Source: a virus (lineage: Duplodnaviria > Heunggongvirae > Uroviricota > Caudoviricetes). Taken from it: 23,598 nucleotides of DNA. Below the pieces are notes generated by a model. That model made no database searches, was not told the origin of the DNA, and worked only from the letters and a program-made list of their open reading frames with translations. Both the position numbers and the translations under genes were made by a program. Position 1 is the first letter of the stretch. Each line of letters begins with the position of its first letter. The stretch lies in the IMG/VR virus record IMGVR_UViG_3300023312_000045, one strand, 5' to 3'. Below are positions 502-23,598 of this stretch, one piece after another.

Positions 502-516
502 TTACCACAACGGTAA
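502..516. promoter_or_regulatory. TTACC-N5-GGTAA inverted-repeat site E, upstream of terS, embedded in tandem direct repeat ACTATTACCAC
   Basis: tTTACCacaacGGTAA read at 502-516; a second degenerate copy TTACCacggtGGTTA follows at 520-534; terS ATG at 534. Confidence 0.5.
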
Positions 517-2692: not shown

Positions 2693-3067
2693 TTATTGCT
2701 CGCTTAACTTCTGCTTCAGCAAGTAACCTTCGAGCATCCAGATTTTGTTTACAGCATTCTGCCGGGCAATCTTCCGACCAATTTCTGCATCAAAGTTTTC
2801 CGGGCTTGCACAGGCACTCTCTCCGGTAACGGTGAAGCCATTCTTCAGTACCAATACGCAGAAAGTGAGAAGGTGCAGAGCATCAGGGGTGGCTTCGACA
2901 TAAGGCTCCGGATTATAAATAAGGTCATCTTCTTTAGCCTGGTGGTCACCCTGCGCAGCAGTGAAAAAATGCTCACTGCAAATGAGGCCTTCAATTTTCT
3001 CGGGTGTTACACGCGGAGCGGTTTTGCCTTTCTCAACGATTTCTTTTTCGATTTGCTGGTCGTTCAT
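2693..3067 (-). CDS. Hypothetical moron protein (124 aa), opposite strand to the flanking late genes
   Basis: ORF with AAGGTGAG Shine-Dalgarno 11 nt upstream; inserted between terL and portal; possibly a gp49/Sf6 gene 66-like phage protein (weak recollection only). Confidence 0.5.
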   Translation of the reverse strand: MNDQQIEKEIVEKGKTAPRVTPEKIEGLICSEHFFTAAQGDHQAKEDDLIYNPEPYVEATPDALHLLTFCVLVLKNGFTVTGESACASPENFDAEIGRKIARQNAVNKIWMLEGYLLKQKLSEQ

Positions 3068-3078
3068 AATCTCACCTT

Positions 3079-3102
3079 AAAAAAATGCCCGGCGAACCGG
3101 GC
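3079..3102 (-). terminator. Rho-independent terminator/attenuator hairpin directly upstream of the 124-aa gene RBS
   Basis: Minus-strand reading GCCCGG-UUCG-CCGGGC followed by AUUUUUUU, then AAGGUGAG and AUG. Confidence 0.55.
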
Positions 3103-3185
3103 GAACTGGAAGCAATGAGTTATGCCTTCCGTGGCTGTACGGGTTTACAGCATGAAGTCATCGCAATGGCGTCCTGCTGTAAAAA

Positions 3186-3222
3186 GGGCGGTGATAGTCC
3201 TTCAAGGGAAACTATCACCGCC
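3186..3222 (-). terminator. Rho-independent terminator downstream of the tRNA (12-bp perfect stem, 12-nt loop, then CUUUUU on minus strand)
   Basis: GGCGGTGATAGT / ACTATCACCGCC inverted repeat read at 3187-3222 with A-tract 3181-3185 on the + strand. Confidence 0.65.
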
Positions 3223-3265
3223 AAGCACCTGGAACTTCTGGCATCACGGTCCTTAGGCGTGATTC

Positions 3266-3342
3266 TGGCGTGGCATGCAGGATTCGAACCTGCGACCAAC
3301 CGCTTAGAAGGCGGTTGCTCTGTCCAACTGAGCTAATGCCAC
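3266..3342 (-). tRNA. tRNA-Arg (anticodon UCU), phage-encoded argU-like
   Basis: Reverse complement folds as a canonical cloverleaf: acceptor GTGGCAT/ATGCCAC, D-stem GCTC/GAGC, anticodon stem ACCGC/GCGGT with loop CTTCTAA (anticodon TCT), T-stem GCAGG/CCTGC with TTCGAAT loop, discriminator G and encoded CCA. Confidence 0.88.
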
Positions 3343-3664
3343 AACGCTGAGAGCACTTAGCCTGTTAAGGCGCCACACTTTGTCGCGGCTCCATAAATGC
3401 TCTCATCGTTGTACCCTCGTCTCTTCCGAGGCGTCACACCGAATCGCCGGGATGGTGAATCCCCGTGCGCGGAATAAAACCGCTCGACTTGCACATTCCG
3501 GCTACCTGGTTCGTTTGCCCGAGCAAGGGAGGGTGCCCCTTAAACGTATCCAGACCGCTATCGGCGCATGTGCCATACGCCGTACTGCTCAAAATAAAAG
3601 CTCACTCCACCTGTTTAATTTAACGACAAGCCAGTCAGGTTAGTAACCAGAATGAGCCCTTTGG

Positions 3665-3679
3665 TTACCTGAAAGGTAA
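3665..3679. promoter_or_regulatory. TTACC-N5-GGTAA site A, upstream of the portal operon; followed by TAATTA -10-like hexamer
   Basis: TTACCtgaaaGGTAA read at 3665-3679; identical 17-mer TTACCTGAAAGGTAATA also present at site B. Confidence 0.55.
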
Positions 3680-3726
3680 TAATTAACGCGTTAAATGTCA
3701 ACCTTCTACGATAAATAAATCATATG

Positions 3727-3741: not shown

Positions 3742-3769
3742 TAATTTAATTGCGTACGGAGTCATTGAT

Positions 3770-3976
3770 ATGTGCATGGGTAGCTCACCATCAGTGCCTG
3801 CAACACCAGAAGTTCAGGCAGCACCACAGGAGCAGGATGCCGCCGTTGTTGATGCCCGCGACGAAGAAACACGTCGCCGTCGCGCTGCTGCTGGTCGTAG
3901 TTCTACGCTGCTTACCGGTTCTCAGGGCGACACATCAACCGCTAATACCAGCGGTAAAACGCTGCTTGGTCAGTAA
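3770..3976 (+). CDS. Small hypothetical protein (68 aa), low-complexity, first gene of the portal operon
   Basis: ORF with the same 12-nt RBS context CGGAGTCATTGA as the portal gene; no recognisable domain. Confidence 0.4.
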   Translation: MCMGSSPSVPATPEVQAAPQEQDAAVVDARDEETRRRRAAAGRSSTLLTGSQGDTSTANTSGKTLLGQ

Positions 3977-3990
3977 CCGGAGTCATTGAA

Positions 3991-5670
3991 ATGGCGGAAA
4001 CAACTAAAGAGCGATTGAACAAACAGTTCGCACAACTTGAAAGCGAGCGTCAGTCGTTCGAGCCGCACTGGCGCGAGTTGAGTGATTACATCAACCCGCG
4101 TGGTTCCCGCTTTCTGACTTCTGAAGTCAACCGTAACGATCGACGCAATACACGCATTATTGATTCGACCGGGACTATGGCGGCGCGCACTCTCGCCAGC
4201 GGCATGATGTCAGGCATCACAAGCCCTGCGCGTCCGTGGTTTCGCCTGGCTACGCCAGATCCTGAAATGATGGATTATGGTCCTGTTAAGTTGTGGCTCG
4301 AGGCGGTGCAGAACCGCATGAACGATATGTTCAATAAGTCGAATCTCTACCAGTCTCTTCCGCAGTTATACGGAAGCCTCGGCACATACAGCACTGGTGC
4401 AATGGCGGTGCTGGAGGATGACGAGGACATCATTCGCACAATGCCATTCCCGATAGGCAGTTACTACCTGGCTAACTCACCTCGTGGCAGTGTGGACACC
4501 TGTTTTCGCAAGTTCTCTATGACTGTTCGTCAGCTTGTTCAGGAGTTCGGGCTAAATAACGTCAGCGAATCCGTAAAAAGCATGTGGGAAAGCGGCACCT
4601 ACGAGAAGTGGATTGAAGTGATGCATTCGGTTTACCCGAACATTGACCGCGATACATCGAAGCTGGATAGCAAGAACAAGCCATTCAAATCGGTTTATTA
4701 CGAGGTTGGTGGCGATAACGACAAGTTGTTGCGTGAGTCCGGATTCGATGAGTTTCCAATTATGGCTCCGCGCTGGGAAGTTAACGGCGAAGATGTTTAT
4801 GGATCATCATGCCCGGGTATGCTGGCGCTTGGACCTGTTAAGGCATTGCAGCTTCTCCAGAAGCGCAAGTCGCAGTTGATTGATAAAGCCACCAATCCGC
4901 CGATGGTTGCTCCGACTTCCCTCAAGAATCAGCGCGCCTCCCTTCTTCCTGGCGACATCACGTATATCGATCAGATTACTGGTCAGGATGGTTTCAGGCC
5001 TGCTTATCTGGTTAACCCCAGTACAGCAGATTTGGTGGCAGACATTCAGGACACTCGTCAAATCATTAACAGCGCCTACTTTGTCGATCTGTTCATGATG
5101 TTGCAGAACATCAATACCCGCTCGATGCCTGTGGAAGCGGTGATCGAAATGAAAGAAGAAAAACTTCTGATGTTGGGGCCGGTTCTGGAGCGCCTGAACG
5201 ACGAATGTCTTAATCCTCTCATTGATCGCTCTTTCTCGATGATGGTGCGTAAAAACATGCTGCCGCCACCGCCTGACGCGATGGAAGGCATGCCCCTGAA
5301 GGTCGAATACATTTCCGTCATGGCTCAGGCGCAGAAGTCTATCGGCCTGTCCAGTCTGGCGTCCACGGTTAACTTCATTGGTCAACTTGCGCAAGCGAAA
5401 CCAGAAGCTCTCGACAAACTCAACGTTGATCAGGCGATCGATGCATTCGCTGATATGTCCGGAGTGTCTCCAACCGTCATTGTTCCGCAGGAACAGGTTG
5501 AGCAGGCTCGCCAGCAACGGGCACAGCAACAACAGCAGCAACAAATGATGGCGATGGGGATGGCGGCGGCACAGGGTGCCAAGACGCTAAGTGAAGCTAA
5601 AACTTCGGATCCGAGTGTTTTGTCAGCTATGGCGAATGCAGTTAGTGGTCAGGGTGGGCAATCACAATGA
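3991..5670 (+). CDS. Portal (head-to-tail connector) protein, T7 gp8-type
   Basis: 559 aa; the N-terminal LASGMMSGITSPARPWFRL region and the Q/A/M-rich C-terminus (QQRAQQQQQQQMMAMGMAAAQG) resemble the T7 connector as recalled; lies after the terminase genes. Confidence 0.8.
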   Translation: MAETTKERLNKQFAQLESERQSFEPHWRELSDYINPRGSRFLTSEVNRNDRRNTRIIDSTGTMAARTLASGMMSGITSPARPWFRLATPDPEMMDYGPVKLWLEAVQNRMNDMFNKSNLYQSLPQLYGSLGTYSTGAMAVLEDDEDIIRTMPFPIGSYYLANSPRGSVDTCFRKFSMTVRQLVQEFGLNNVSESVKSMWESGTYEKWIEVMHSVYPNIDRDTSKLDSKNKPFKSVYYEVGGDNDKLLRESGFDEFPIMAPRWEVNGEDVYGSSCPGMLALGPVKALQLLQKRKSQLIDKATNPPMVAPTSLKNQRASLLPGDITYIDQITGQDGFRPAYLVNPSTADLVADIQDTRQIINSAYFVDLFMMLQNINTRSMPVEAVIEMKEEKLLMLGPVLERLNDECLNPLIDRSFSMMVRKNMLPPPPDAMEGMPLKVEYISVMAQAQKSIGLSSLASTVNFIGQLAQAKPEALDKLNVDQAIDAFADMSGVSPTVIVPQEQVEQARQQRAQQQQQQQMMAMGMAAAQGAKTLSEAKTSDPSVLSAMANAVSGQGGQSQ

Positions 5671-6675: not shown

Positions 6676-7662
6676 ATGGCTGTTAAAGGCTTAACTGCGC
6701 TGACGCTGGCTGACTGGGGTAAGCGCGTCGATCCAAACGGGAAAGTCGATAAGATTATCGAGCTTCTCGGTCAAACTAACCCGATCCTTCAGGATATGCC
6801 TTTTGTCGAAGGGAACCTTCCTACCGGACACCGAACCACCATTCGTTCTGGTTTACCTTCAGCTACCTGGCGTTTGCTGAACTATGGCGTACAGCCAAGC
6901 AAATCAACCACAGTGCAGGTAACCGATTCCGTTGGCATGCTGGAAACCTATGCGGAAGTCGATAAGTCACTGGCTGATCTGAACGGCAATACCGCCGAAT
7001 TCCGCCTGTCTGAAGACCGCGCATTTATTGAAGCGATGAATCAGCAGATGGCGCAGACGCTGTTTTATGGTGATTCCAGCGTTAACCCTCAGCAGTTTAT
7101 GGGACTGTCCTCCCGCTATTCCAGCCTGTCTGCGGGTAATGCTCAGAACATCATTGATGCTGGTGGCACGGGTACAGATAACACCTCAATCTGGTTAGTG
7201 GTGTGGGGCGAAAACACCGTGCATGGCATCTTCCCGAAAGGGCAGAAGGCTGGCATCCAGATGGAAGATAAAGGCCAGGTGACACTGGAAGATGCTAATG
7301 GCGGCAAGTACGAAGGCTACCGTACCCATTACAAATGGGACAACGGACTTGCTCTGCGTGACTGGCGTTATGTTGTTCGCATTGCAAACATCGATGTCAG
7401 CAATCTTTCAGAACCATCCTCTGCCGCAAATATTGCGAAGTTGATGGTTAAAGCACTACATCGCATTCCAAACCGTGGCATGGGCCGCCCGGTGTTCTAC
7501 ATGAACCGCACTGTAGGCCAGGCTCTTGATCTGCAGTCTCTGGAGAAAACATCTCTGGCTATCAGCGTAAAAGAGACAGAAGGCGAGTGGTGGACTTCAT
7601 TCCGTGGTGTACCAATCCGTGAAACTGATGCGCTTCTGGAAACAGAAGCCAGCGTGGTGTAA
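6676..7662 (+). CDS. Major capsid protein (putative)
   Basis: About 330 aa, directly after scaffold, with GAGAGG RBS; gene-order inference, family not confirmed. Confidence 0.65.
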   Translation: MAVKGLTALTLADWGKRVDPNGKVDKIIELLGQTNPILQDMPFVEGNLPTGHRTTIRSGLPSATWRLLNYGVQPSKSTTVQVTDSVGMLETYAEVDKSLADLNGNTAEFRLSEDRAFIEAMNQQMAQTLFYGDSSVNPQQFMGLSSRYSSLSAGNAQNIIDAGGTGTDNTSIWLVVWGENTVHGIFPKGQKAGIQMEDKGQVTLEDANGGKYEGYRTHYKWDNGLALRDWRYVVRIANIDVSNLSEPSSAANIAKLMVKALHRIPNRGMGRPVFYMNRTVGQALDLQSLEKTSLAISVKETEGEWWTSFRGVPIRETDALLETEASVV

Positions 7663-19827: not shown

Positions 19828-20388
19828 ATGAAGGCAATTATATTTTTTGTTTCAATATTGATGTCTGCATTTTCTTTTGCAGGGCAAAATGTTAAATGCG
19901 AACTTCAATACTTTGGAGATAGCGATAAATTTAAGGTAACTCAGTTTTCTTTTATGGGGATTCCATCTGATTCATACCTTTATACCTGTGCCGACTGTGG
20001 AGGCATCCAGATAAACGTGTTCCCATCTATTCAGACTGTTGCTTCCTACTCATTTGAAAACAACATTGATTTCGAAAGGAAAATCAATGCTGAATACAAC
20101 AGAAAAGACATAGCTAAACTTGAGATGGAAAACGTTACTCAAGGCGGGAGAATAAAATATTCAATCACCGATACTGGTTTGGCAGAGTTTTACCCAGAGG
20201 GCAAAAAGATAAGCTACCTCTACTTTTTAGCCAAGCAACAAAATGGTAAAGAACAAGTAGGTTATTCAGGATTTGTTACCTCTAACGGGGATAAGTCATG
20301 CTCAATTATTGCGACATATCCAGGAAAAGAAATTTCTTTTCTGGGAAGTAAATCTTTAAGCTACTTTATGAATCATATATCAATGTAG
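19828..20388 (+). CDS. Secreted/periplasmic hypothetical protein with Sec-type signal peptide (moron)
   Basis: N-terminus MKAIIFFVSILMSAFSFAGQ has n-h-c signal peptide organisation; coding DNA looks AT-rich relative to flanking virion genes; followed by a terminator. Confidence 0.6.
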   Translation: MKAIIFFVSILMSAFSFAGQNVKCELQYFGDSDKFKVTQFSFMGIPSDSYLYTCADCGGIQINVFPSIQTVASYSFENNIDFERKINAEYNRKDIAKLEMENVTQGGRIKYSITDTGLAEFYPEGKKISYLYFLAKQQNGKEQVGYSGFVTSNGDKSCSIIATYPGKEISFLGSKSLSYFMNHISM

Positions 20389-20389
20389 C

Positions 20390-20401
20390 GTGACATGTCA
20401 C
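20390..20401. repeat. 12-bp perfect palindrome GTGACATGTCAC, copy 3 of 3
   Basis: Exact sequence at 20390-20401, 2 nt after the stop of the 186-aa gene and abutting the terminator hairpin. Confidence 0.9.
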
Positions 20402-20426
20402 AGGCCGCTTTCGCGGCCTTGTTTTT
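20402..20426 (+). terminator. Rho-independent terminator (AGGCCGC-TTTC-GCGGCCT then TGTTTTT)
   Basis: Perfect 7-bp stem and T tract read directly. Confidence 0.75.
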
Positions 20427-20586
20427 AACGAATGCCACCGCCGCCAGGGCGGGAATCCGCAGAACGCCCACCGCAGCGGGAGCCGTCAGCAGCAGTGTCG
20501 CTGTCGTGCTGACAACGACCGGCAAAGGCCTGAGTTGAAGCTACCAGAGACAACAAAACGAACAGTGCAGCAAATGCTTTTTTCAT
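20425..20586 (-). CDS. Small secreted peptide precursor (53 aa: signal peptide plus about 31-aa mature Gly-rich peptide with two Cys)
   Basis: Internal Met of ORF 20425..20658 gives MKKAFAALFVLLSLVASTQAFA|GRCQHDSDTAADGSRCGGRSADSRPGGGGIR; the ORF-track upstream extension overlaps a terminator. Sits in a short patch that looks GC-rich, so an ORF artefact is possible. Confidence 0.35.
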   Translation of the reverse strand: MKKAFAALFVLLSLVASTQAFAGRCQHDSDTAADGSRCGGRSADSRPGGGGIR

Positions 20587-20655
20587 TGTGAAATTTCCAT
20601 CTATAAGCCACCTCAATGTGGCGTCAATGAGTGTAGCACTGACTTTTGTTTCGTC

Positions 20656-20681
20656 CACAAAAAAGCCCGCAACGCGGGCTT
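20656..20681 (-). terminator. Rho-independent terminator ending the 62-aa/110-aa operon
   Basis: Minus-strand AAGCCCGC-GUU-GCGGGCUU followed by UUUUUUGUG. Confidence 0.75.
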
Positions 20682-20683
20682 AT

Positions 20684-21016
20684 TCAGTTATTTACTTTCT
20701 TTGGCACTATTGCTGATAATGAGATCATAAAGCCAGTTAGAGCAGCAATAATTAATGGGAATATGAAAGCATCTGAAGTTCTCAGTGGATTCTTCATATC
20801 GAACAGAATAACAATGAAGAATGCGCTGGTTGCAAAAGTAGATGATGAATAAACCTCATTCATCTTGTATTGCAACTTATCCAAAGAAAAAGGAGGCGTA
20901 TCTTTGCAAACGGCATCCCATATCAGATGAACAGCAAGATAAGCAATGCACAGTATGAAATAAAACCTTGTCAATTGCTGTGCATCTCTGGGCGCAAGCC
21001 AAGATAAATCAGGCAT
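20684..21016 (-). CDS. Small integral membrane protein (110 aa, about 3 predicted TM helices); candidate immunity/partner protein
   Basis: Hydrophobic segments FYFILCIAYLAVHLIW, FATSAFFIVILF, AFIFPLIIAALTGFMISLSAIV; start lies 1 nt after the stop of the upstream 62-aa gene (translational coupling). Confidence 0.55.
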   Translation of the reverse strand: MPDLSWLAPRDAQQLTRFYFILCIAYLAVHLIWDAVCKDTPPFSLDKLQYKMNEVYSSSTFATSAFFIVILFDMKNPLRTSDAFIFPLIIAALTGFMISLSAIVPKKVNN

Positions 21017-21017
21017 T

Positions 21018-21206
21018 TTAGTTGGCTAACTTCTTTGCGGCATAGATAGCAGGGAGTGCAACAGCACCAGCCACAGCAAATGCATAGGCTATCCCAGCTG
21101 TAACAGTAAAAGCAGGAAGCAGGAAAGATAATCCGCCTGGTAGGGCAAAGCCTAAGCCCGCTCCGCCAATAATGGCCTTCAGCAATGTAATGATGTTGAT
21201 TTCCAT
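21018..21206 (-). CDS. 62-aa glycine-zipper hydrophobic membrane peptide (holin-like or toxin-like)
   Basis: Strong RBS GAGGGGG 4 nt before ATG; sequence MEINIITLLKAIIGGAGLGFALPGGLSFLLPAFTVTAGIAYAFAVAGAVALPAIYAAKKLAN is almost entirely Gly/Ala/hydrophobic with a KK-containing C-terminus. Confidence 0.55.
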   Translation of the reverse strand: MEINIITLLKAIIGGAGLGFALPGGLSFLLPAFTVTAGIAYAFAVAGAVALPAIYAAKKLAN

Positions 21207-21232: not shown

Positions 21233-21247
21233 TTACCTTTGGGGTAA
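21233..21247. promoter_or_regulatory. TTACC-N5-GGTAA site D, 27 bp upstream of the 62-aa gene start
   Basis: TTACCtttggGGTAA read at 21233-21247. Confidence 0.5.
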
Positions 21248-21318: not shown

Positions 21319-21975
21319 TCAGAAGAACCCTGCCTTGTCGTTGATGTACTCCGCGTGGGTCTGGATATCACGCAGGCATTTGCTCACACCGACGATGTAG
21401 CAGAACATGGTGGTCAGTTCCGCCGCCGCGCCCGATACATCGTGCCCGTCTTCCTGTAACTGGTTCAGCAGATTCATCAGCAGTGAGTTCTCCGTCAGGC
21501 CGAGAACACCAGACGGCGAATGAATCAGGCTGCGGTAGCCGGGCTTCAGTGGGGCGCTGTATTCTTTTTTGTCTTCCAGCTTGATCGCCTCCATTATGGC
21601 GGGCATGAAGCCTGACAAGACCTTCTCCACTTTTGTTTCTTGTTGTCTTAAACGTTTCTCGCATTCAATGAAGTAGCGTCGCACCTGGCGACCTTTTTCG
21701 TTACGCTCGACCATCGCCAGCTCTTTGGCTGTATCAAGGGTGAGGTGGTACTCTTTGCGGTTGTGGCCGCCTCTACCAGATGTTTGCTTTCCCAAATTGG
21801 AAAGCAAAATATAGTCTTGATTTTCAATGAATTCGTATTCTGATATGCGATTTGTAATCCATGCTGCAAACACCTTTTTAACACCTAAAAAAGCGTGCAG
21901 ATCGCGGGCATTACAAAGTAGGGCTGTTTCGTTAGATATAGTGCCGTTGAATACGGGGATGAGTTGAGCGTTCAT
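21319..21975 (-). CDS. Phage antirepressor, AntA-type N-terminal domain plus KilAC/ANT-like C-terminal domain
   Basis: N-terminal region ([29 protein letters not shown]...[33 protein letters not shown]) matches the AntA antirepressor domain as recalled; C-terminal 70 aa are paralogous to the 90-aa protein at 22293..22565. Confidence 0.75.
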
Positions 21976-22004
21976 GATGGCGTCTCCACTTAGCGAATTA
22001 CATC

Positions 22005-22052
22005 ACCACCGCTGAGACCAATCAGATGGTGGTGAACTGAACGGAGTTGGTC
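22005..22052 (-). other. Pseudoknot-capable structured element in the antirepressor leader
   Basis: Interleaved complementary hexamers: ACCACC (22005-22010) with GGTGGT (22028-22033), and GACCAA (22016-22021) with TTGGTC (22047-22052). Confidence 0.3.
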
Positions 22053-22133
22053 TTACCGGCCTAAGTGGTACCGGCGTCCTTTCGGACCCCCATTCAGCCC
22101 ACCATAATTCTGGCATGACTGTGCTATACGCAT

Positions 22134-22156
22134 AAAAAAACCACGTCTGGCGTGGT
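22134..22156 (-). terminator. Rho-independent terminator between the two antirepressor-family genes
   Basis: Minus-strand ACCACG-CCAGA-CGUGGU followed by UUUUUUU. Confidence 0.7.
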
Positions 22157-22167
22157 ATGCGCCACTT

Positions 22168-22220
22168 AGTAATCCGGGAGACCAATCCCGGCACTGGATT
22201 TTGCCAGTGCCCGATTACTA
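22168..22220 (-). other. Structured RNA element (two hairpins enclosed by a 7-bp outer stem) upstream of the terminator; candidate 3'UTR-derived or regulatory RNA
   Basis: AGTAATC...GATTACT outer stem enclosing CCGGGA-GACCAA-TCCCGG and CACTGG-ATTTTG-CCAGTG hairpins, read directly. Confidence 0.3.
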
Positions 22221-22246
22221 TGGCACAAGAGGAGTTCGATGTAAAT

Positions 22247-22261
22247 TTACCGCAAAGGTAA
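22247..22261. promoter_or_regulatory. TTACC-N5-GGTAA site C, downstream of the 90-aa gene
   Basis: TTACCgcaaaGGTAA read at 22247-22261. Confidence 0.5.
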
Positions 22262-22292
22262 TAATAAACACTCCACTTGGTAATTGCAAACC

Positions 22293-22565
22293 TTATCTGG
22301 TTTGCTTTCGTAATTGTTCGGCACAATAGTCGAGATGTGTTTGCAGATCCTGCATAGACATCTGTGAGCTGGTGACGTAGTTAATCAGTGCAGTCAGTTC
22401 GGCAAGTGGGCCATCGACATTAAATCCATCCTTATCGAGATCCCGGAGTAATTTCATCAAGTGCGATCCCTCCACCAGTGACCTGACGCCTCCCGGCGTG
22501 TGAATCCTTTCGGTAAATCCGTCTTCCAGTGGATAGTGATACTGCTGCATCTTAATCTTCTCCAT
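22293..22565 (-). CDS. Small antirepressor-family protein (stand-alone KilAC/ANT-like domain), LexA-controlled
   Basis: 90 aa; RSLVEGSHLMKLLRDLDKDGFNVDGPLAELTALINYV aligns with [47 protein letters not shown] of the 218-aa antirepressor; a LexA box lies 5 bp upstream of the start. Confidence 0.7.
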   Translation of the reverse strand: MEKIKMQQYHYPLEDGFTERIHTPGGVRSLVEGSHLMKLLRDLDKDGFNVDGPLAELTALINYVTSSQMSMQDLQTHLDYCAEQLRKQTR

Positions 22566-22570
22566 GCAAT

Positions 22571-22590
22571 AACTGTATATTTATACAGTA
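22571..22590. promoter_or_regulatory. LexA (SOS) box AACTGTATATTTATACAGTA
   Basis: CTGT-N8-ACAG with AT-rich spacer, 18 of 20 matches to the TACTGTATATATATACAGTA consensus; in the divergent region between the 90-aa gene and the tailspike gene. Confidence 0.75.
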
Positions 22591-22620: not shown

Positions 22621-22648
22621 TTGCAAATTACCTGAAAGGTAATATCTA
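22621..22648 (+). promoter_or_regulatory. Candidate sigma70 promoter for tailspike: -35 TTGCAA, 16-bp spacer, -10 TATCTA, with TTACC-N5-GGTAA site B (22628-22642) inside the spacer
   Basis: Hexamers and spacing read directly; operator-in-spacer geometry is typical of repressible promoters. Confidence 0.45.
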
Positions 22649-22746: not shown

Positions 22747-23598
22747 ATGACGGTCTCAACCGAAGTTGACCACAACGAATACACAGGTAACGGCGTTACG
22801 ACATCGTTTCCGTATACTTTTCGAATTTTCAGAAAATCAGACCTGGTTGTTCAGGTGTCTGACCTGAACGGAAACGTAACAGAATTGGTTCTGGATACCG
22901 GTTATACGGTAACTGGGGCGGGCACTTATAGTGGCGGTTCTGTGGTTCTTCCGTCTCCGCTTGCTACTGGATGGCGAATTACGATAGATCGTGTGCTTGA
23001 TGTAGTGCAGGAGACAGACCTTCGCAATCAGGGAAAATTTTTCCCAGAAGTGCATGAAGATGCCTTTGACTACCTGACGATGCTGATCCAGCAATGTTTT
23101 GGGTGGTTCAGACGTGCATTGATGAAACCATCTTTGCTTGCAAAATATTACGATGCAAAGCAAAACAAAATTTCTAACCTTGCAGATCCATCATTTGAGC
23201 AGGACGCTGTAAATAATCGCTCAATGCGTAATTATGTCGATGCTGCAATCGCCGGGGTTGTTGGTGGTTTTGGTTGGTTTATTCAGTATGGTTCTGGGGC
23301 TGTGTACCGAACGTTCCAGGATAAAATGCGTGATGCTATTAGCCCCAAAGATTTTGGAGCTGTTGGTGATGGTATAAATGACGATTCCACTGCAATAAGC
23401 GCGTGCCTTGAAGCCTCATCTCCAGGTTATAAAATTGACGGATTAGGGCTTACTTTTAAAGTATCAACTCTTCCGGATGTCAGTCGATTTAAAAATGCTC
23501 GTTTTTTATTTGAGAGAATACCGGGCCAGCCTCTTTTTTATGCTTCTGAAGATTTTATCCAGGGAGAGTTATTTAAAATTACAGATACACCGTGGTAC
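22747..23598 (+). CDS. Tailspike/tail fibre protein, 5' partial (runs off window end): T7 gp17-like N-terminal adaptor domain followed by the start of a pectate-lyase-type beta-helix
   Basis: Open frame from ATG 22747 to the window end (284 codons, translated by hand; absent from the ORF track because it has no stop). N-terminus GNGVTTSFPYTFRIFRKSDLVVQV parallels T7 gp17 DGSNRDFNIPFEYLARKFVVV as recalled; FGAVGDGINDDSTAI is the hallmark start of beta-helix depolymerase domains. Confidence 0.75.
   Translation, partial: MTVSTEVDHNEYTGNGVTTSFPYTFRIFRKSDLVVQVSDLNGNVTELVLDTGYTVTGAGTYSGGSVVLPSPLATGWRITIDRVLDVVQETDLRNQGKFFPEVHEDAFDYLTMLIQQCFGWFRRALMKPSLLAKYYDAKQNKISNLADPSFEQDAVNNRSMRNYVDAAIAGVVGGFGWFIQYGSGAVYRTFQDKMRDAISPKDFGAVGDGINDDSTAISACLEASSPGYKIDGLGLTFKVSTLPDVSRFKNARFLFERIPGQPLFYASEDFIQGELFKITDTPWY

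What the first reader, a model, noticed from the sequence alone, without database searches (positions are those of the whole stretch)
21319..22565. immI-like locus with two tandem antirepressor-family genes sharing one C-terminal domain, placed between ejection-protein genes and the tailspike as in P22
The 218-aa protein has an AntA-type N-terminal domain plus a C-terminal domain; the 90-aa protein is that C-terminal domain alone (alignable over about 65 residues with conserved LxxLLxxLxxDGxxVxGxxAELT). The two genes are co-oriented, separated by a terminator and a highly structured leader, and occupy the same genomic slot as the P22 immunity-I region. A domain-only paralogue could act as the actual antirepressor, as a competitor, or as a dominant-negative regulator of the full-length protein.
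Basis: partly seen in the sequence, partly recalled or inferred. Interest (0 to 1): 0.5.

Follow-up and report, generated by a model that had tools for sequence, protein, structure and literature searches.

The report
Two differently wired phage antirepressor genes
This prophage stretch carries two genes for proteins that switch off the phage repressor, one released by DNA damage and one held back by a small antisense RNA; both parts belong to known systems, so the locus is informative but largely ordinary.

Summary
On the minus strand, a 218-aa protein (21319-21975) has an AntA N-domain (Pfam E=4e-26). Its C-terminal ~80 residues align with the small neighbouring protein (42% identity, E=3e-21).

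- The phage is epsilon15/phiV10-like (Uetakevirus), not P22-like, and nothing of P22 immI (mnt, arc, sar) is present.
- The small protein is really 85 aa, starting at ATG 22550. It is the orthologue (88% identity) of the SPC32H antirepressor Ant, whose structure is solved with its repressor Rep (PDB 5D50). A conserved LexA box (22571-22590) lies just upstream.
- The "terminator and structured leader" are two RNA genes: an IsrK-type sRNA (22134-22210) and a P1/P7-type C4 antisense RNA (22025-22109).
- The C4 loops are exactly complementary to sites in IsrK and to sites over the large gene's ribosome-binding site. These sites covary across three specificity types in related phages.
- Relatives swap the large protein's N-domain (AntA or Bro-N) but keep the Ant-like C-domain.

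Best reading: two antirepressors aimed at one Rep, one SOS-controlled and one RNA-gated. Every module is known, and the full locus occurs in 74 complete E. coli genomes. I rate it a new member of known kinds, of moderate interest.

The parts
22293..22550 (-). Small antirepressor gene ant (85 aa plus stop). It is the orthologue of SPC32H Ant.
   Evidence: PDB 5D50_E 'Anti-repressor protein', E=4e-47. 88% identity to the SPC32H ant product. phrog_450, E=3e-48. The upstream ATG is out of frame in relatives.
22571..22590 (-). LexA (SOS) box TACTGTATAAATATACAGTT, 20 nt upstream of the small ant start codon.
   Evidence: It has 2 mismatches to TACTGTATATATATACAGTA and is conserved at the same place in phiv142-3, phiV10, ZX5, TL-2011b and SPC32H. 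It is the only AT-rich CTGT-N8-ACAG in the window. One of the two SPC32H/SPC32N differences in the 5.2 kb compared falls in the orthologous box.
22628..22642 (.). Palindrome TTACC-N5-GGTAA, directly upstream of a TTGCAA hexamer in front of small ant. Putative Rep/Cro operator.
   Evidence: 5 exact copies in the window against 0 expected. The same palindrome clusters in the rep-cro intergenic regions of phiv142-3 and SPC32H, and one lies upstream of SPC32H ant. Binding is inferred, not shown.
22247..22261 (.). A second copy of the TTACC-N5-GGTAA palindrome. It overlaps the last base of the -10 hexamer of the upstream promoter-like site and lies 1 nt from the -35 hexamer of the IsrK promoter-like site.
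   Evidence: Coordinates verified.
22261..22289 (-). Promoter-like site TTGCAA-17-TATTAT, immediately after the small ant stop codon.
   Evidence: Consensus scan, 9 of 12 matches. This is a consensus match only.
22217..22245 (-). Promoter-like site TTTACA-17-CATAGT with TG. It would place the transcript start about 7 nt downstream, at position 1 of the IsrK model (22210).
   Evidence: The IsrK model begins at 22210.
22134..22210 (-). IsrK-type sRNA, the a1/b1 leader. It carries a1 TTGGTCT (22179-22185), b1 CTAAGTGG (22162-22169) and an intrinsic terminator (22134-22156).
   Evidence: Rfam isrK RF01394, 67.7 bits against a gathering score of 50. c4-a1b1 RF03163 overlaps it at 39.9 bits, below its gathering score of 46.7. 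Terminator. Complementarity.
22025..22109 (-). C4 antisense RNA. The loop carries b' CCACTTAG (22061-22068) and a single-stranded stretch carries a' AGACCAA (22047-22053).
   Evidence: Rfam C4 RF01695, 61.2 bits against a gathering score of 45. The consensus fold has 27 pairs, 6 of them with compensatory changes among 3 distinct sequences.
21984..22021 (-). Target sites in the leader of the large ant gene: a2 TTGGTCT (22015-22021) and b2 CTAAGTGG (21986-21993). b2 overlaps the Shine-Dalgarno GGAG (21984-21987).
   Evidence: The sites are exactly complementary to a'/b'. All three copies of the b element (b1, b', b2) covary across the three specificity types (window, ZX5/phiV10/TL-2011b, Klebsiella phage). 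The a element covaries between the window and ZX5 types; the Klebsiella a is identical to the window's.
21319..21975 (-). Large antirepressor gene (218 aa). AntA N-domain at aa 22-92 (nt 21700-21912) and Ant-like C-domain at aa 137-213 (nt 21337-21567).
   Evidence: Pfam AntA, E=4e-26. The C-domain matches PDB 5D50_E, E=5e-14. phrog_377 'anti-repressor Ant', E=3e-66. ZX5 and TL-2011b have a Bro-N N-domain with a near-identical C-domain.

Best explanation
This is the anti-immunity region of an epsilon15/phiV10-like temperate podophage. It carries two antirepressors that share one repressor-targeting domain but respond to different signals.

(1) The 85-aa Ant is the SPC32H-type antirepressor.
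- LexA bound at the SOS box keeps it off. DNA damage removes LexA, and Ant is then made.
[quoted passage not shown] The same is assumed here.

(2) The 218-aa protein joins a swappable AntA N-domain to a diverged copy of the Ant domain. It is controlled after transcription by a P1/P7-type cassette.
- Transcription from the IsrK promoter mostly stops at the IsrK terminator, giving a short sRNA that carries a1/b1.
- Read-through transcripts yield C4 RNA and the ant mRNA.
- C4 pairs through a'/b' with a2/b2 and covers the ribosome-binding site, so no large antirepressor is made.
- IsrK carries decoy copies (a1/b1) that can titrate C4 and release translation, as was shown for Gifsy-1 IsrK and AnrP.

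Shown here: the homologies, the RNA family matches, the complementarity and its covariation, and the conservation of the LexA box.

Inferred: that both proteins inactivate the same Rep, that the TTACC-N5-GGTAA palindromes are Rep operators at both promoters, and that SOS-driven read-through from small ant feeds a1/b1 into the RNA switch.
For: Small Ant:
- 88% identity to SPC32H Ant, and a match to PDB 5D50_E at E=4e-47.
- The LexA box is conserved in six loci.
- One of the two SPC32H/SPC32N differences in the 5.2 kb compared falls in the orthologous box.
- The review PMC7380047 states that Ant is made after LexA cleavage.
- PMC9638917 describes a tetrameric Ant that binds two Rep dimers.

Large Ant:
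- The C-domain is homologous to Ant.
- The N-domain is exchanged (AntA or Bro-N) while the C-domain is kept.
- Every context I examined for this C-domain was Uetakevirus-like. Four prophage contexts of the 216-aa homologue carry a Rep identical to that of phiv142-3, and that Rep matches SPC32H Rep (5D50_A) at E=4e-42.
- The Stx-phage Ant shares the AntA domain but has a different C-domain.
- Overexpression of ZX5 ORF4, which has a near-identical C-domain, lowered lysogens from 1e9 to 1e6 (PMC9782041).

RNA switch:
- The isrK and C4 matches are above Rfam gathering scores in the window and five related loci.
- a'/b' are exactly complementary to a1/b1 and a2/b2, and the sites covary across specificity types: b in all three, a in two.
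- b2 overlaps the Shine-Dalgarno sequence.
- Gifsy-1 has the same isrK-C4-antirepressor order, and its function was tested (PMC4825925).
Against: - No binding or expression data exist for this phage.
- rep lies outside the window, so its presence is inferred from phiv142-3, which is 98% identical over the locus.
- Small Ant is 84-88% conserved while Rep is only 42% identical between the E. coli and Salmonella phages. It is therefore unproven that both Ant-type domains bind the E. coli-type Rep.
- The shared residues could serve tetramer formation rather than Rep contact.
- The AF2 model of the 218-aa protein was unusable, with mean pLDDT 41.
- The Gifsy-1 uORF (orf45), needed there for translational coupling, is cut to 3 codons here. 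The activation route must therefore differ in detail.
- The promoters are consensus matches only.
- The large gene is frameshifted in phiV10, so it is dispensable.
Confidence: 0.72

Rival explanations
1. First reader's alternative. The small protein regulates the large one. As a domain-only paralogue it would compete with the full-length antirepressor or poison its oligomers (dominant negative), so the large protein would be the real effector.
For: The two proteins share a domain that forms tetramers in SPC32H Ant (PMC9638917). Mixed oligomers are therefore conceivable.
Against: The SPC32H genome has only the small gene and no large partner, yet the small protein is its working antirepressor and was crystallised with Rep. 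The small gene is present in every matching phage record and is preceded by a LexA box in all five E. coli and Salmonella relatives checked. The large gene is frameshifted in phiV10.
Confidence: 0.07
2. The large protein is not aimed at the phage's own Rep. Its diverged Ant-like domain would target Rep variants of other, heteroimmune Uetakevirus prophages, or another repressor. It would then act as a trans-acting cross-induction or anti-immunity factor on infection, as described for P22 Ant and the Gifsy antirepressors.
For: The C-domain is only 42% identical to the resident small Ant. Rep types differ strongly, at 42% identity. In P1/P7, C4 specificity types define heteroimmunity, and three types occur here. 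Cross-talk of antirepressors is documented in Salmonella (PMC7380047).
Against: The large protein co-occurs with one identical Rep type in all contexts examined. Overexpression of ZX5 ORF4 reduced lysogeny of ZX5 itself.
Confidence: 0.12
3. The large protein is mainly a DNA-binding regulator. It would act through its AntA or Bro-N domain and use the Ant-like domain only to form oligomers, so it would not be a repressor-binding antirepressor.
For: To my knowledge, Bro-N/KilA-N-type domains are regarded as DNA-binding modules that shuffle among viral regulators (Iyer, Koonin and Aravind 2002, from memory). The ZX5 paper also notes possible DNA binding. Ant is a tetramer.
Against: Unrelated N-domains (AntA, Bro-N) are exchanged on a constant C-domain. 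The AntA domain also occurs with a different C-domain in Stx phages. This pattern fits a C-domain that sets target specificity. The ZX5 phenotype also fits antirepression.
Confidence: 0.07
4. A P22-type immI region, with ant under Mnt/Arc repressors and sar antisense RNA.
For: Only the analogous map position, between the internal-virion genes and the tailspike.
Against: The genome is Uetakevirus. No Arc/Mnt or P22_AR domains turned up in the two proteins or the neighbouring small ORFs. The RNA elements match C4 and isrK and are encoded in the sense direction upstream of ant, not antisense within it.
Confidence: 0.01

Closest known systems
SPC32H Rep-Ant switch (Salmonella Uetakevirus; Kim & Ryu 2013 and Kim et al. 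2016, both recalled from memory; PDB 5D50/5D4Z)
   Same: The small Ant is 88% identical and has the same length. It sits in the same map position next to the tailspike gene, with the same LexA box and the same upstream palindrome. The Rep homologue in the near-identical phage phiv142-3 matches 5D50_A at E=4e-42.
   Different: SPC32H has only this gene in the slot. It has no IsrK/C4 cassette and no second antirepressor. Its Rep is only 42% identical to the E. coli-type Rep.
P1/P7 immI (c4 antisense RNA - icd - ant1/ant2)
   Same: A C4-family RNA is encoded upstream of, and in the same direction as, the antirepressor gene. Two short complementary elements (a', b') have one target pair upstream (a1/b1) and one over the ribosome-binding site (a2/b2). 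Specificity types covary, as in P1/P7 heteroimmunity (the P1 mechanism is summarised in PMC12197685).
   Different: There is no icd-like ORF between C4 and ant, so b2 covers the ant Shine-Dalgarno directly. The host phage is a podovirus with a different repressor. I did not compare the antirepressor with P1 Ant.
Gifsy-1 isrK-orf45(STnc1160)-anrP locus (Hershko-Shalev et al. 2016, PMC4825925)
   Same: The order IsrK sRNA with terminator, then C4-family RNA, then antirepressor is identical, and both RNA families match above gathering scores. In Gifsy-1, short IsrK activates translation of the downstream antirepressor in trans, and that antirepressor induces the prophage.
   Different: AnrP has an ORF6N N-domain and an unrelated C-terminus. 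The 45-codon uORF needed for coupling in Gifsy-1 is only 3 codons here. Here the cassette lies directly downstream of a LexA-controlled antirepressor gene.
vB_EcoP_ZX5 ORF4 anti-repressor (PMC9782041), phiV10 p23/p24, TL-2011b, phiv142-3 Orf7/Orf8
   Same: This is the same locus in published phages. phiv142-3 is 98% identical over it. ZX5 ORF4 has a near-identical C-domain, and its overexpression lowered lysogeny about 1000-fold.
   Different: ZX5, phiV10 and TL-2011b carry Bro-N instead of AntA and a different C4 specificity type. The ZX5 paper contains none of the terms SPC32H, LexA or antisense, and in these phage records the small gene is annotated only as a hypothetical protein.
Stx-phage Ant (e.g. 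Stx1_p081) with the sRNA-Xcc1-type antisense cassette
   Same: It has an AntA N-domain (59% identity in Stx1_p081; up to 94% over a 90-aa fragment in another Stx phage). It follows the same logic of a terminator-bearing leader, an antisense RNA and a target over the Shine-Dalgarno.
   Different: The C-domain is P22_AR_C-like, not Ant-like. The RNA belongs to family RF02221, not C4.

Membership tests
SPC32H-type small antirepressor (Ant) | Protein of ~86 aa homologous over its full length to the crystallised Ant | tested here: met
   phmmer against PDB 5D50_E, E=4e-47, residues 7-89 aligned to 3-85. 88% identity to the SPC32H ant product.
SPC32H-type small antirepressor (Ant) | LexA box overlapping the ant promoter | tested here: met
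   The box at 22571-22590 has 2 mismatches to the consensus. It is orthologous to the SPC32H box that carries the SPC32N point difference. LexA binding itself was not tested.
SPC32H-type small antirepressor (Ant) | Cognate non-cleavable Rep of the SPC32H family in the same phage | tested here: inconclusive
   rep is outside the window. phiv142-3, 98% identical over this locus, encodes a Rep that matches 5D50_A at E=4e-42.
SPC32H-type small antirepressor (Ant) | Physical binding to Rep and release of Rep from the operator | not testable with these tools
   This needs pull-down or gel-shift experiments.
P1/P7 immI (c4-icd-ant) | C4 antisense RNA encoded upstream of ant on the same strand | tested here: met
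   RF01695, 61.2 bits against a gathering score of 45, at 22025-22109. Compensatory pairs.
P1/P7 immI (c4-icd-ant) | a'/b' elements complementary to a1/b1 upstream and to a2/b2 over the ribosome-binding site | tested here: met
   Exact matches of 7 nt and 8 nt at both target sets, covarying across specificity types (b in all three, a in two). b2 overlaps GGAG.
P1/P7 immI (c4-icd-ant) | icd ORF between c4 and ant, translationally coupled to ant | tested here: not met
   No ORF lies between C4 and the ant start codon. The only ORFs there overlap C4 and are not conserved in length (3 to 45 codons across loci).
P1/P7 immI (c4-icd-ant) | Antirepressor homologous to P1 Ant1/Ant2 | not tested
   P1 Ant was not retrieved, so no comparison was made.
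IsrK/C4-antirepressor cassette (Gifsy-1 type) | IsrK sRNA with its own terminator, followed by a C4-like RNA and an antirepressor gene | tested here: met
   isrK RF01394, 67.7 bits against a gathering score of 50, with terminator 22134-22156. The order is the same as in Gifsy-1.
IsrK/C4-antirepressor cassette (Gifsy-1 type) | orf45-type uORF required for translational coupling | tested here: not met
   The uORF that starts at the AUG in the C4 stem is 3 codons here, against 45 in Gifsy-1.
P22 immI (mnt-arc-ant-sar) | Arc and Mnt ribbon-helix-helix repressors, and a P22-type Ant (P22_AR_N/C) | tested here: not met
   Pfam finds only AntA in the large protein, and nothing in the small protein or the neighbouring small ORFs.
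P22 immI (mnt-arc-ant-sar) | sar RNA transcribed antisense within the arc-ant region | tested here: not met
   The RNA matches are C4 and isrK, on the same strand as ant and upstream of it.
AntA/AntB antirepressor family (Pfam PF08346) | AntA domain above the gathering score | tested here: met
   91.8 bits against a cut-off of 27, residues 22-92.

The most novel reading that the evidence does not exclude
E. coli Uetakeviruses may run a two-input lytic switch on one repressor. One Rep-binding domain would be deployed twice: once as a free LexA-controlled protein that senses DNA damage, and once fused to a swappable AntA or Bro-N module behind a C4/IsrK RNA gate that senses superinfection or physiological state. 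Two links would connect the inputs. First, no terminator separates small ant from IsrK, so SOS-driven transcripts would carry the a1/b1 decoy and help open the RNA gate. Second, putative Rep operators sit at both promoters, which would give positive feedback once Rep starts to fall. Mixed Ant tetramers are also possible. I found no description of this in the literature I could search.
Probability: 0.35. Interest if true: 0.55.

Novelty: new member of a known kind. Interest (0 to 1): 0.38.

Why it matters
The result explains a common E. coli prophage locus. The full arrangement occurs in 74 of 5,426 complete genomes, and parts of it in 866. RefSeq calls the small gene "hypothetical protein", and no RNA feature is listed under the match. 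It links three bodies of work that have been treated separately: SPC32H Rep-Ant structural biology, P1/P7 c4 immunity, and Gifsy-1 IsrK. It also offers a compact system for asking how one repressor integrates SOS and non-SOS induction signals. That question bears on prophage induction and on the spread of genes carried by temperate phages in E. coli. The modular pattern, with a constant repressor-targeting C-domain and exchangeable N-domains and RNA specificity types, is also a clean natural example of how antirepressor specificity evolves.

Tried and rejected
- AlphaFold2 of the 218-aa protein with a 20-row alignment gave mean pLDDT 40.9 and pTM 0.29. The model was too poor for any fold search, so none was run. 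Ant is a tetramer and the alignment was shallow.
- The primary SPC32H papers could not be read, either by DOI or as PMC3807360. I could therefore not map Rep-contact residues of Ant onto the large protein. What I state about those papers rests on secondary citations, the PDB matches, the SPC32H/SPC32N sequence comparison and my own memory, marked as such.
- NCBIfam gave no family for either protein. Pfam has no family for the small protein or for the shared C-domain.
- A convincing sigma-70 promoter for small ant was not found by the scan. By eye, only TAGCAA-18-TATAAA overlapping the LexA box, or a TTGCAA hexamer next to the palindrome.
- Weak Rfam hits (MicC, Trp leader, Thr leader, mir-6132) at 20649-21114 were all far below gathering scores and were dismissed.
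- P22-type immI was considered and rejected (see the membership test).
- orf45-type translational coupling was considered and rejected for this locus, because the uORF is only 3 codons.
Full report
**1. What is at the coordinates**

Both genes lie on the minus strand: a 218-aa ORF at 21319-21975 and a 90-aa ORF at 22293-22565.
- BLASTP of one against the other gives 42% identity over 83 residues, E=3e-21.
- The 218-aa protein carries Pfam AntA (PF08346) at residues 22-92, E=4e-26. It matches phrog_377 "anti-repressor Ant" over its full length.
- The small protein matches phrog_450 (no assigned function). The same family also matches residues 135-216 of the large protein.

One correction concerns the small gene's start. 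The ATG at 22565 is in frame with the next ATG (22550) only in this window. In phiV10, ZX5, TL-2011b, SPC32H and a Klebsiella phage it is out of frame or absent. GGAG lies 9 nt before 22550. The real product is therefore most likely 85 aa.

**2. Genomic setting**

- The region is 98% identical to Escherichia phage phiv142-3. It is also related to phiV10, TL-2011b, ZX5 and, more distantly, epsilon15-like Salmonella phages, all Uetakevirus. It is not a P22-like phage.
- Upstream lie virion structural and internal-virion protein genes, and downstream the tailspike gene. The map position therefore resembles that of P22 immI, but nothing else of P22 immI is present.

**3. The small protein is a known antirepressor**

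- It matches PDB 5D50 chain E, "Anti-repressor protein" (86 aa), at E=4e-47. It is 88% identical to the annotated ant product of Salmonella phage SPC32H.
- Secondary sources state that in such Salmonella phages Ant is made after LexA self-cleavage and inactivates the repressor by protein-protein contact (PMC7380047). [quoted passage not shown]
- Twenty nucleotides upstream of the start codon lies TACTGTATAAATATACAGTT (22571-22590). It has 2 mismatches to the LexA consensus and is conserved at the same position in all five E. coli and Salmonella relatives.
- SPC32H and SPC32N differ at two positions in the 5.2 kb I compared. One of them (19960 G>T) destroys the CTG of the orthologous box. This fits my recollection of Kim & Ryu 2013, that a single change in the LexA site makes Ant constitutive.

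**4. The "terminator and structured leader" are two RNA genes**

- Rfam finds isrK (RF01394, 22134-22210, 67.7 bits against a gathering score of 50) and C4 antisense RNA (RF01695, 22025-22109, 61.2 bits against 45), both on the minus strand.
- The same pair is present in phiv142-3, phiV10, ZX5, TL-2011b and Klebsiella phage ST512-KPC3phi13.3. It is absent from SPC32H, where ant alone fills the slot.
- The C4 loop sequence CCACTTAG (b') and the stretch AGACCAA (a') are exactly complementary to two target pairs. One is CTAAGTGG/TTGGTCT inside IsrK (b1/a1). The other is the same pair in the leader of the large gene (b2/a2). b2 overlaps the Shine-Dalgarno GGAG, which ends 8 nt before the ATG.
- In ZX5, phiV10 and TL-2011b all three copies read CTAAAAGG/TTGGCGT with matching b'/a'. 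In the Klebsiella phage b reads CTACAAAGG with a matching b'. Non-cognate combinations lack the b pairing, and ZX5-type combinations also lack the a pairing. This three-way covariation is the signature of P1/P7 c4 immunity.
- The C4 fold itself shows 6 compensatory pairs among 27.
- The 251-nt IsrK-to-ant transcript folds at -100.3 kcal/mol, z=-4.6.
- Gifsy-1 has the same order: isrK, C4 (its "orf45"/STnc1160), then the antirepressor AnrP. There, short IsrK activates AnrP translation in trans, and AnrP induces the prophage (PMC4825925).
- The uORF used for coupling in Gifsy-1 (45 codons) is 35 codons in ZX5, 15 in the Klebsiella phage and 3 here. Here the region acts as RNA, and C4 most simply blocks the ant ribosome-binding site directly.
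- A promoter-like TTTACA-17-CATAGT (with TG) would place the transcript start at position 1 of the IsrK model.

**5. The large protein is a modular fusion**

- ZX5 and TL-2011b encode a 231-aa protein with a Bro-N N-domain (Pfam E=2e-21) and a C-domain nearly identical to residues 137-218 here.
- phiV10's copy is frameshifted inside that domain, and the Klebsiella phage has an intact Bro-N version.
- The AntA N-domain is 59% identical to that of a Stx1-phage Ant and 94% identical to a 90-aa fragment in another Stx phage. The Stx1 protein ends in a P22_AR_C-like domain instead and sits behind an sRNA-Xcc1-type antisense cassette.
- An 86%-identical 216-aa homologue is present in hundreds of E. 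coli genomes. In the four contexts I examined it lies next to the integrase of guaA-integrated Uetakevirus-like prophages. Their Rep is 100% identical to that of phiv142-3, and the gene again sits behind an sRNA-Xcc1-type cassette.
- So the N-domain and the RNA gate are interchangeable, while the Ant-like C-domain travels with this repressor family.
- phiv142-3 Rep matches SPC32H Rep (5D50_A) at E=4e-42.
- ZX5 ORF4 overexpression lowered lysogens from 1e9 to 1e6. The authors discussed neither the small gene, nor LexA, nor any RNA (PMC9782041).

**6. Likely mechanism**

There are two antirepressors for one Rep.
- The SOS arm (LexA box, small Ant) is well supported by orthology.
- The RNA-gated arm (IsrK/C4, large Ant) is well supported for its RNA logic.
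- It is inferred, not shown, that the large protein's target is Rep.

Further inferences:
- The palindrome TTACC-N5-GGTAA occurs 5 times in the window against 0 expected. It clusters in the rep-cro regions of phiv142-3 and SPC32H and sits beside the promoter elements of both antirepressor units. It is probably the Rep/Cro operator.
- No terminator separates small ant from IsrK. SOS-driven transcripts should therefore end with the a1/b1 decoy.

**7. Caveats**

- rep lies outside the window.
- Small Ant is 84-88% conserved while Rep is only 42% identical across hosts. This is unexplained and leaves room for the large protein's domain being the one matched to the E. coli Rep, or aimed at other Rep types.
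- The AF2 model was unusable.
- The primary SPC32H papers were not available.

**8. Novelty**

- Each module is a clear member of a described family. The locus exists in published phages and in 74 of 5,426 complete E. coli genomes, with parts of it in 866.
- In the literature I could search I found no statement of three things: that E. coli Uetakeviruses carry both antirepressors, that the two share the Ant domain, and that the large one is C4/IsrK-gated.
- I rate it a new member of known kinds with a moderately interesting composite design.

Noticed in passing
window 502-516, 3665-3679, 21233-21247, 22247-22261, 22628-22642: The palindrome TTACC-N5-GGTAA occurs 5 times against 0 expected. In the phiv142-3 and SPC32H genomes nearly all of the 9-10 copies lie between annotated genes. 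They cluster between rep and the cro-like gene and also lie in front of the terminase and portal gene clusters. This looks like a dispersed Rep/Cro operator set, reminiscent of the scattered P1 C1 operators.
   Followed up: partly
small ant (window 22293-22550) compared with Rep of phiv142-3 (L007 32364-32948) and SPC32H (L008 33739-34335): Small Ant is 84-88% identical between the E. coli and Salmonella phages, although their Rep proteins are only 42% identical (C-domain 38%). This is an unexplained mismatch in divergence for supposed binding partners.
   Followed up: partly
L002 (phiV10) 3012-3691; L005 (TL-2011b) 3756-4670 and 6780-7082: The phiV10 large antirepressor is frameshifted inside the Ant-like domain, so p23 plus p22 are one broken gene. 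TL-2011b has an insertion of about 0.8 kb between small ant and isrK, and a third Ant-like C-domain copy on the opposite strand.
   Followed up: partly
L009 5700-6000; L014 1372-1460; L015 1373-1461 and 1912-1997: Other AntA antirepressor genes sit behind an sRNA-Xcc1 (RF02221) element. They include the 216-aa homologue next to int and the Stx-phage Ant. The element has a terminator-bearing leader and a short repeat that recurs over the Shine-Dalgarno. It appears to be a second RNA family doing the same job as C4/IsrK.
   Followed up: partly
window 22003-22133: The ORFs that overlap C4 are not conserved in length or frame across loci. ZX5 annotates one of them as a 37-aa "ash family protein". 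The orf45-equivalent uORF is 3 codons here. These annotations probably mark the RNA gene rather than proteins.
   Followed up: yes
window 19828-21206: A block of small accessory genes lies between the last virion gene and the large ant gene. It holds a 186-aa protein with a hydrophobic N-terminus that looks like a signal peptide (by eye; phrog_11983), a 77-aa protein (phrog_3117 and the 'membrane associated protein' family phrog_14503), a 110-aa protein and a 62-aa protein that looks hydrophobic (by eye). None has a Pfam match. One palindrome copy (21233-21247) precedes the 62-aa gene.
   Followed up: no
window 3266-3342 (-): A tRNA-Arg(tct) gene, also present in phiv142-3, SPC32H and Gifsy-1.
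   Followed up: no
window 22747-23598 (+): The tailspike runs off the window end. Its N-terminus matches tail-protein and tailspike families over the full 284 residues. Residues 205-271 match the endosialidase N-terminal extension (PF12218).
   Followed up: no
E. coli complete genomes (H101-H112): Under this locus RefSeq lists only "phage antirepressor Ant" and "hypothetical protein". The LexA-controlled Ant is unnamed, and no RNA feature appears under the match.
   Followed up: no
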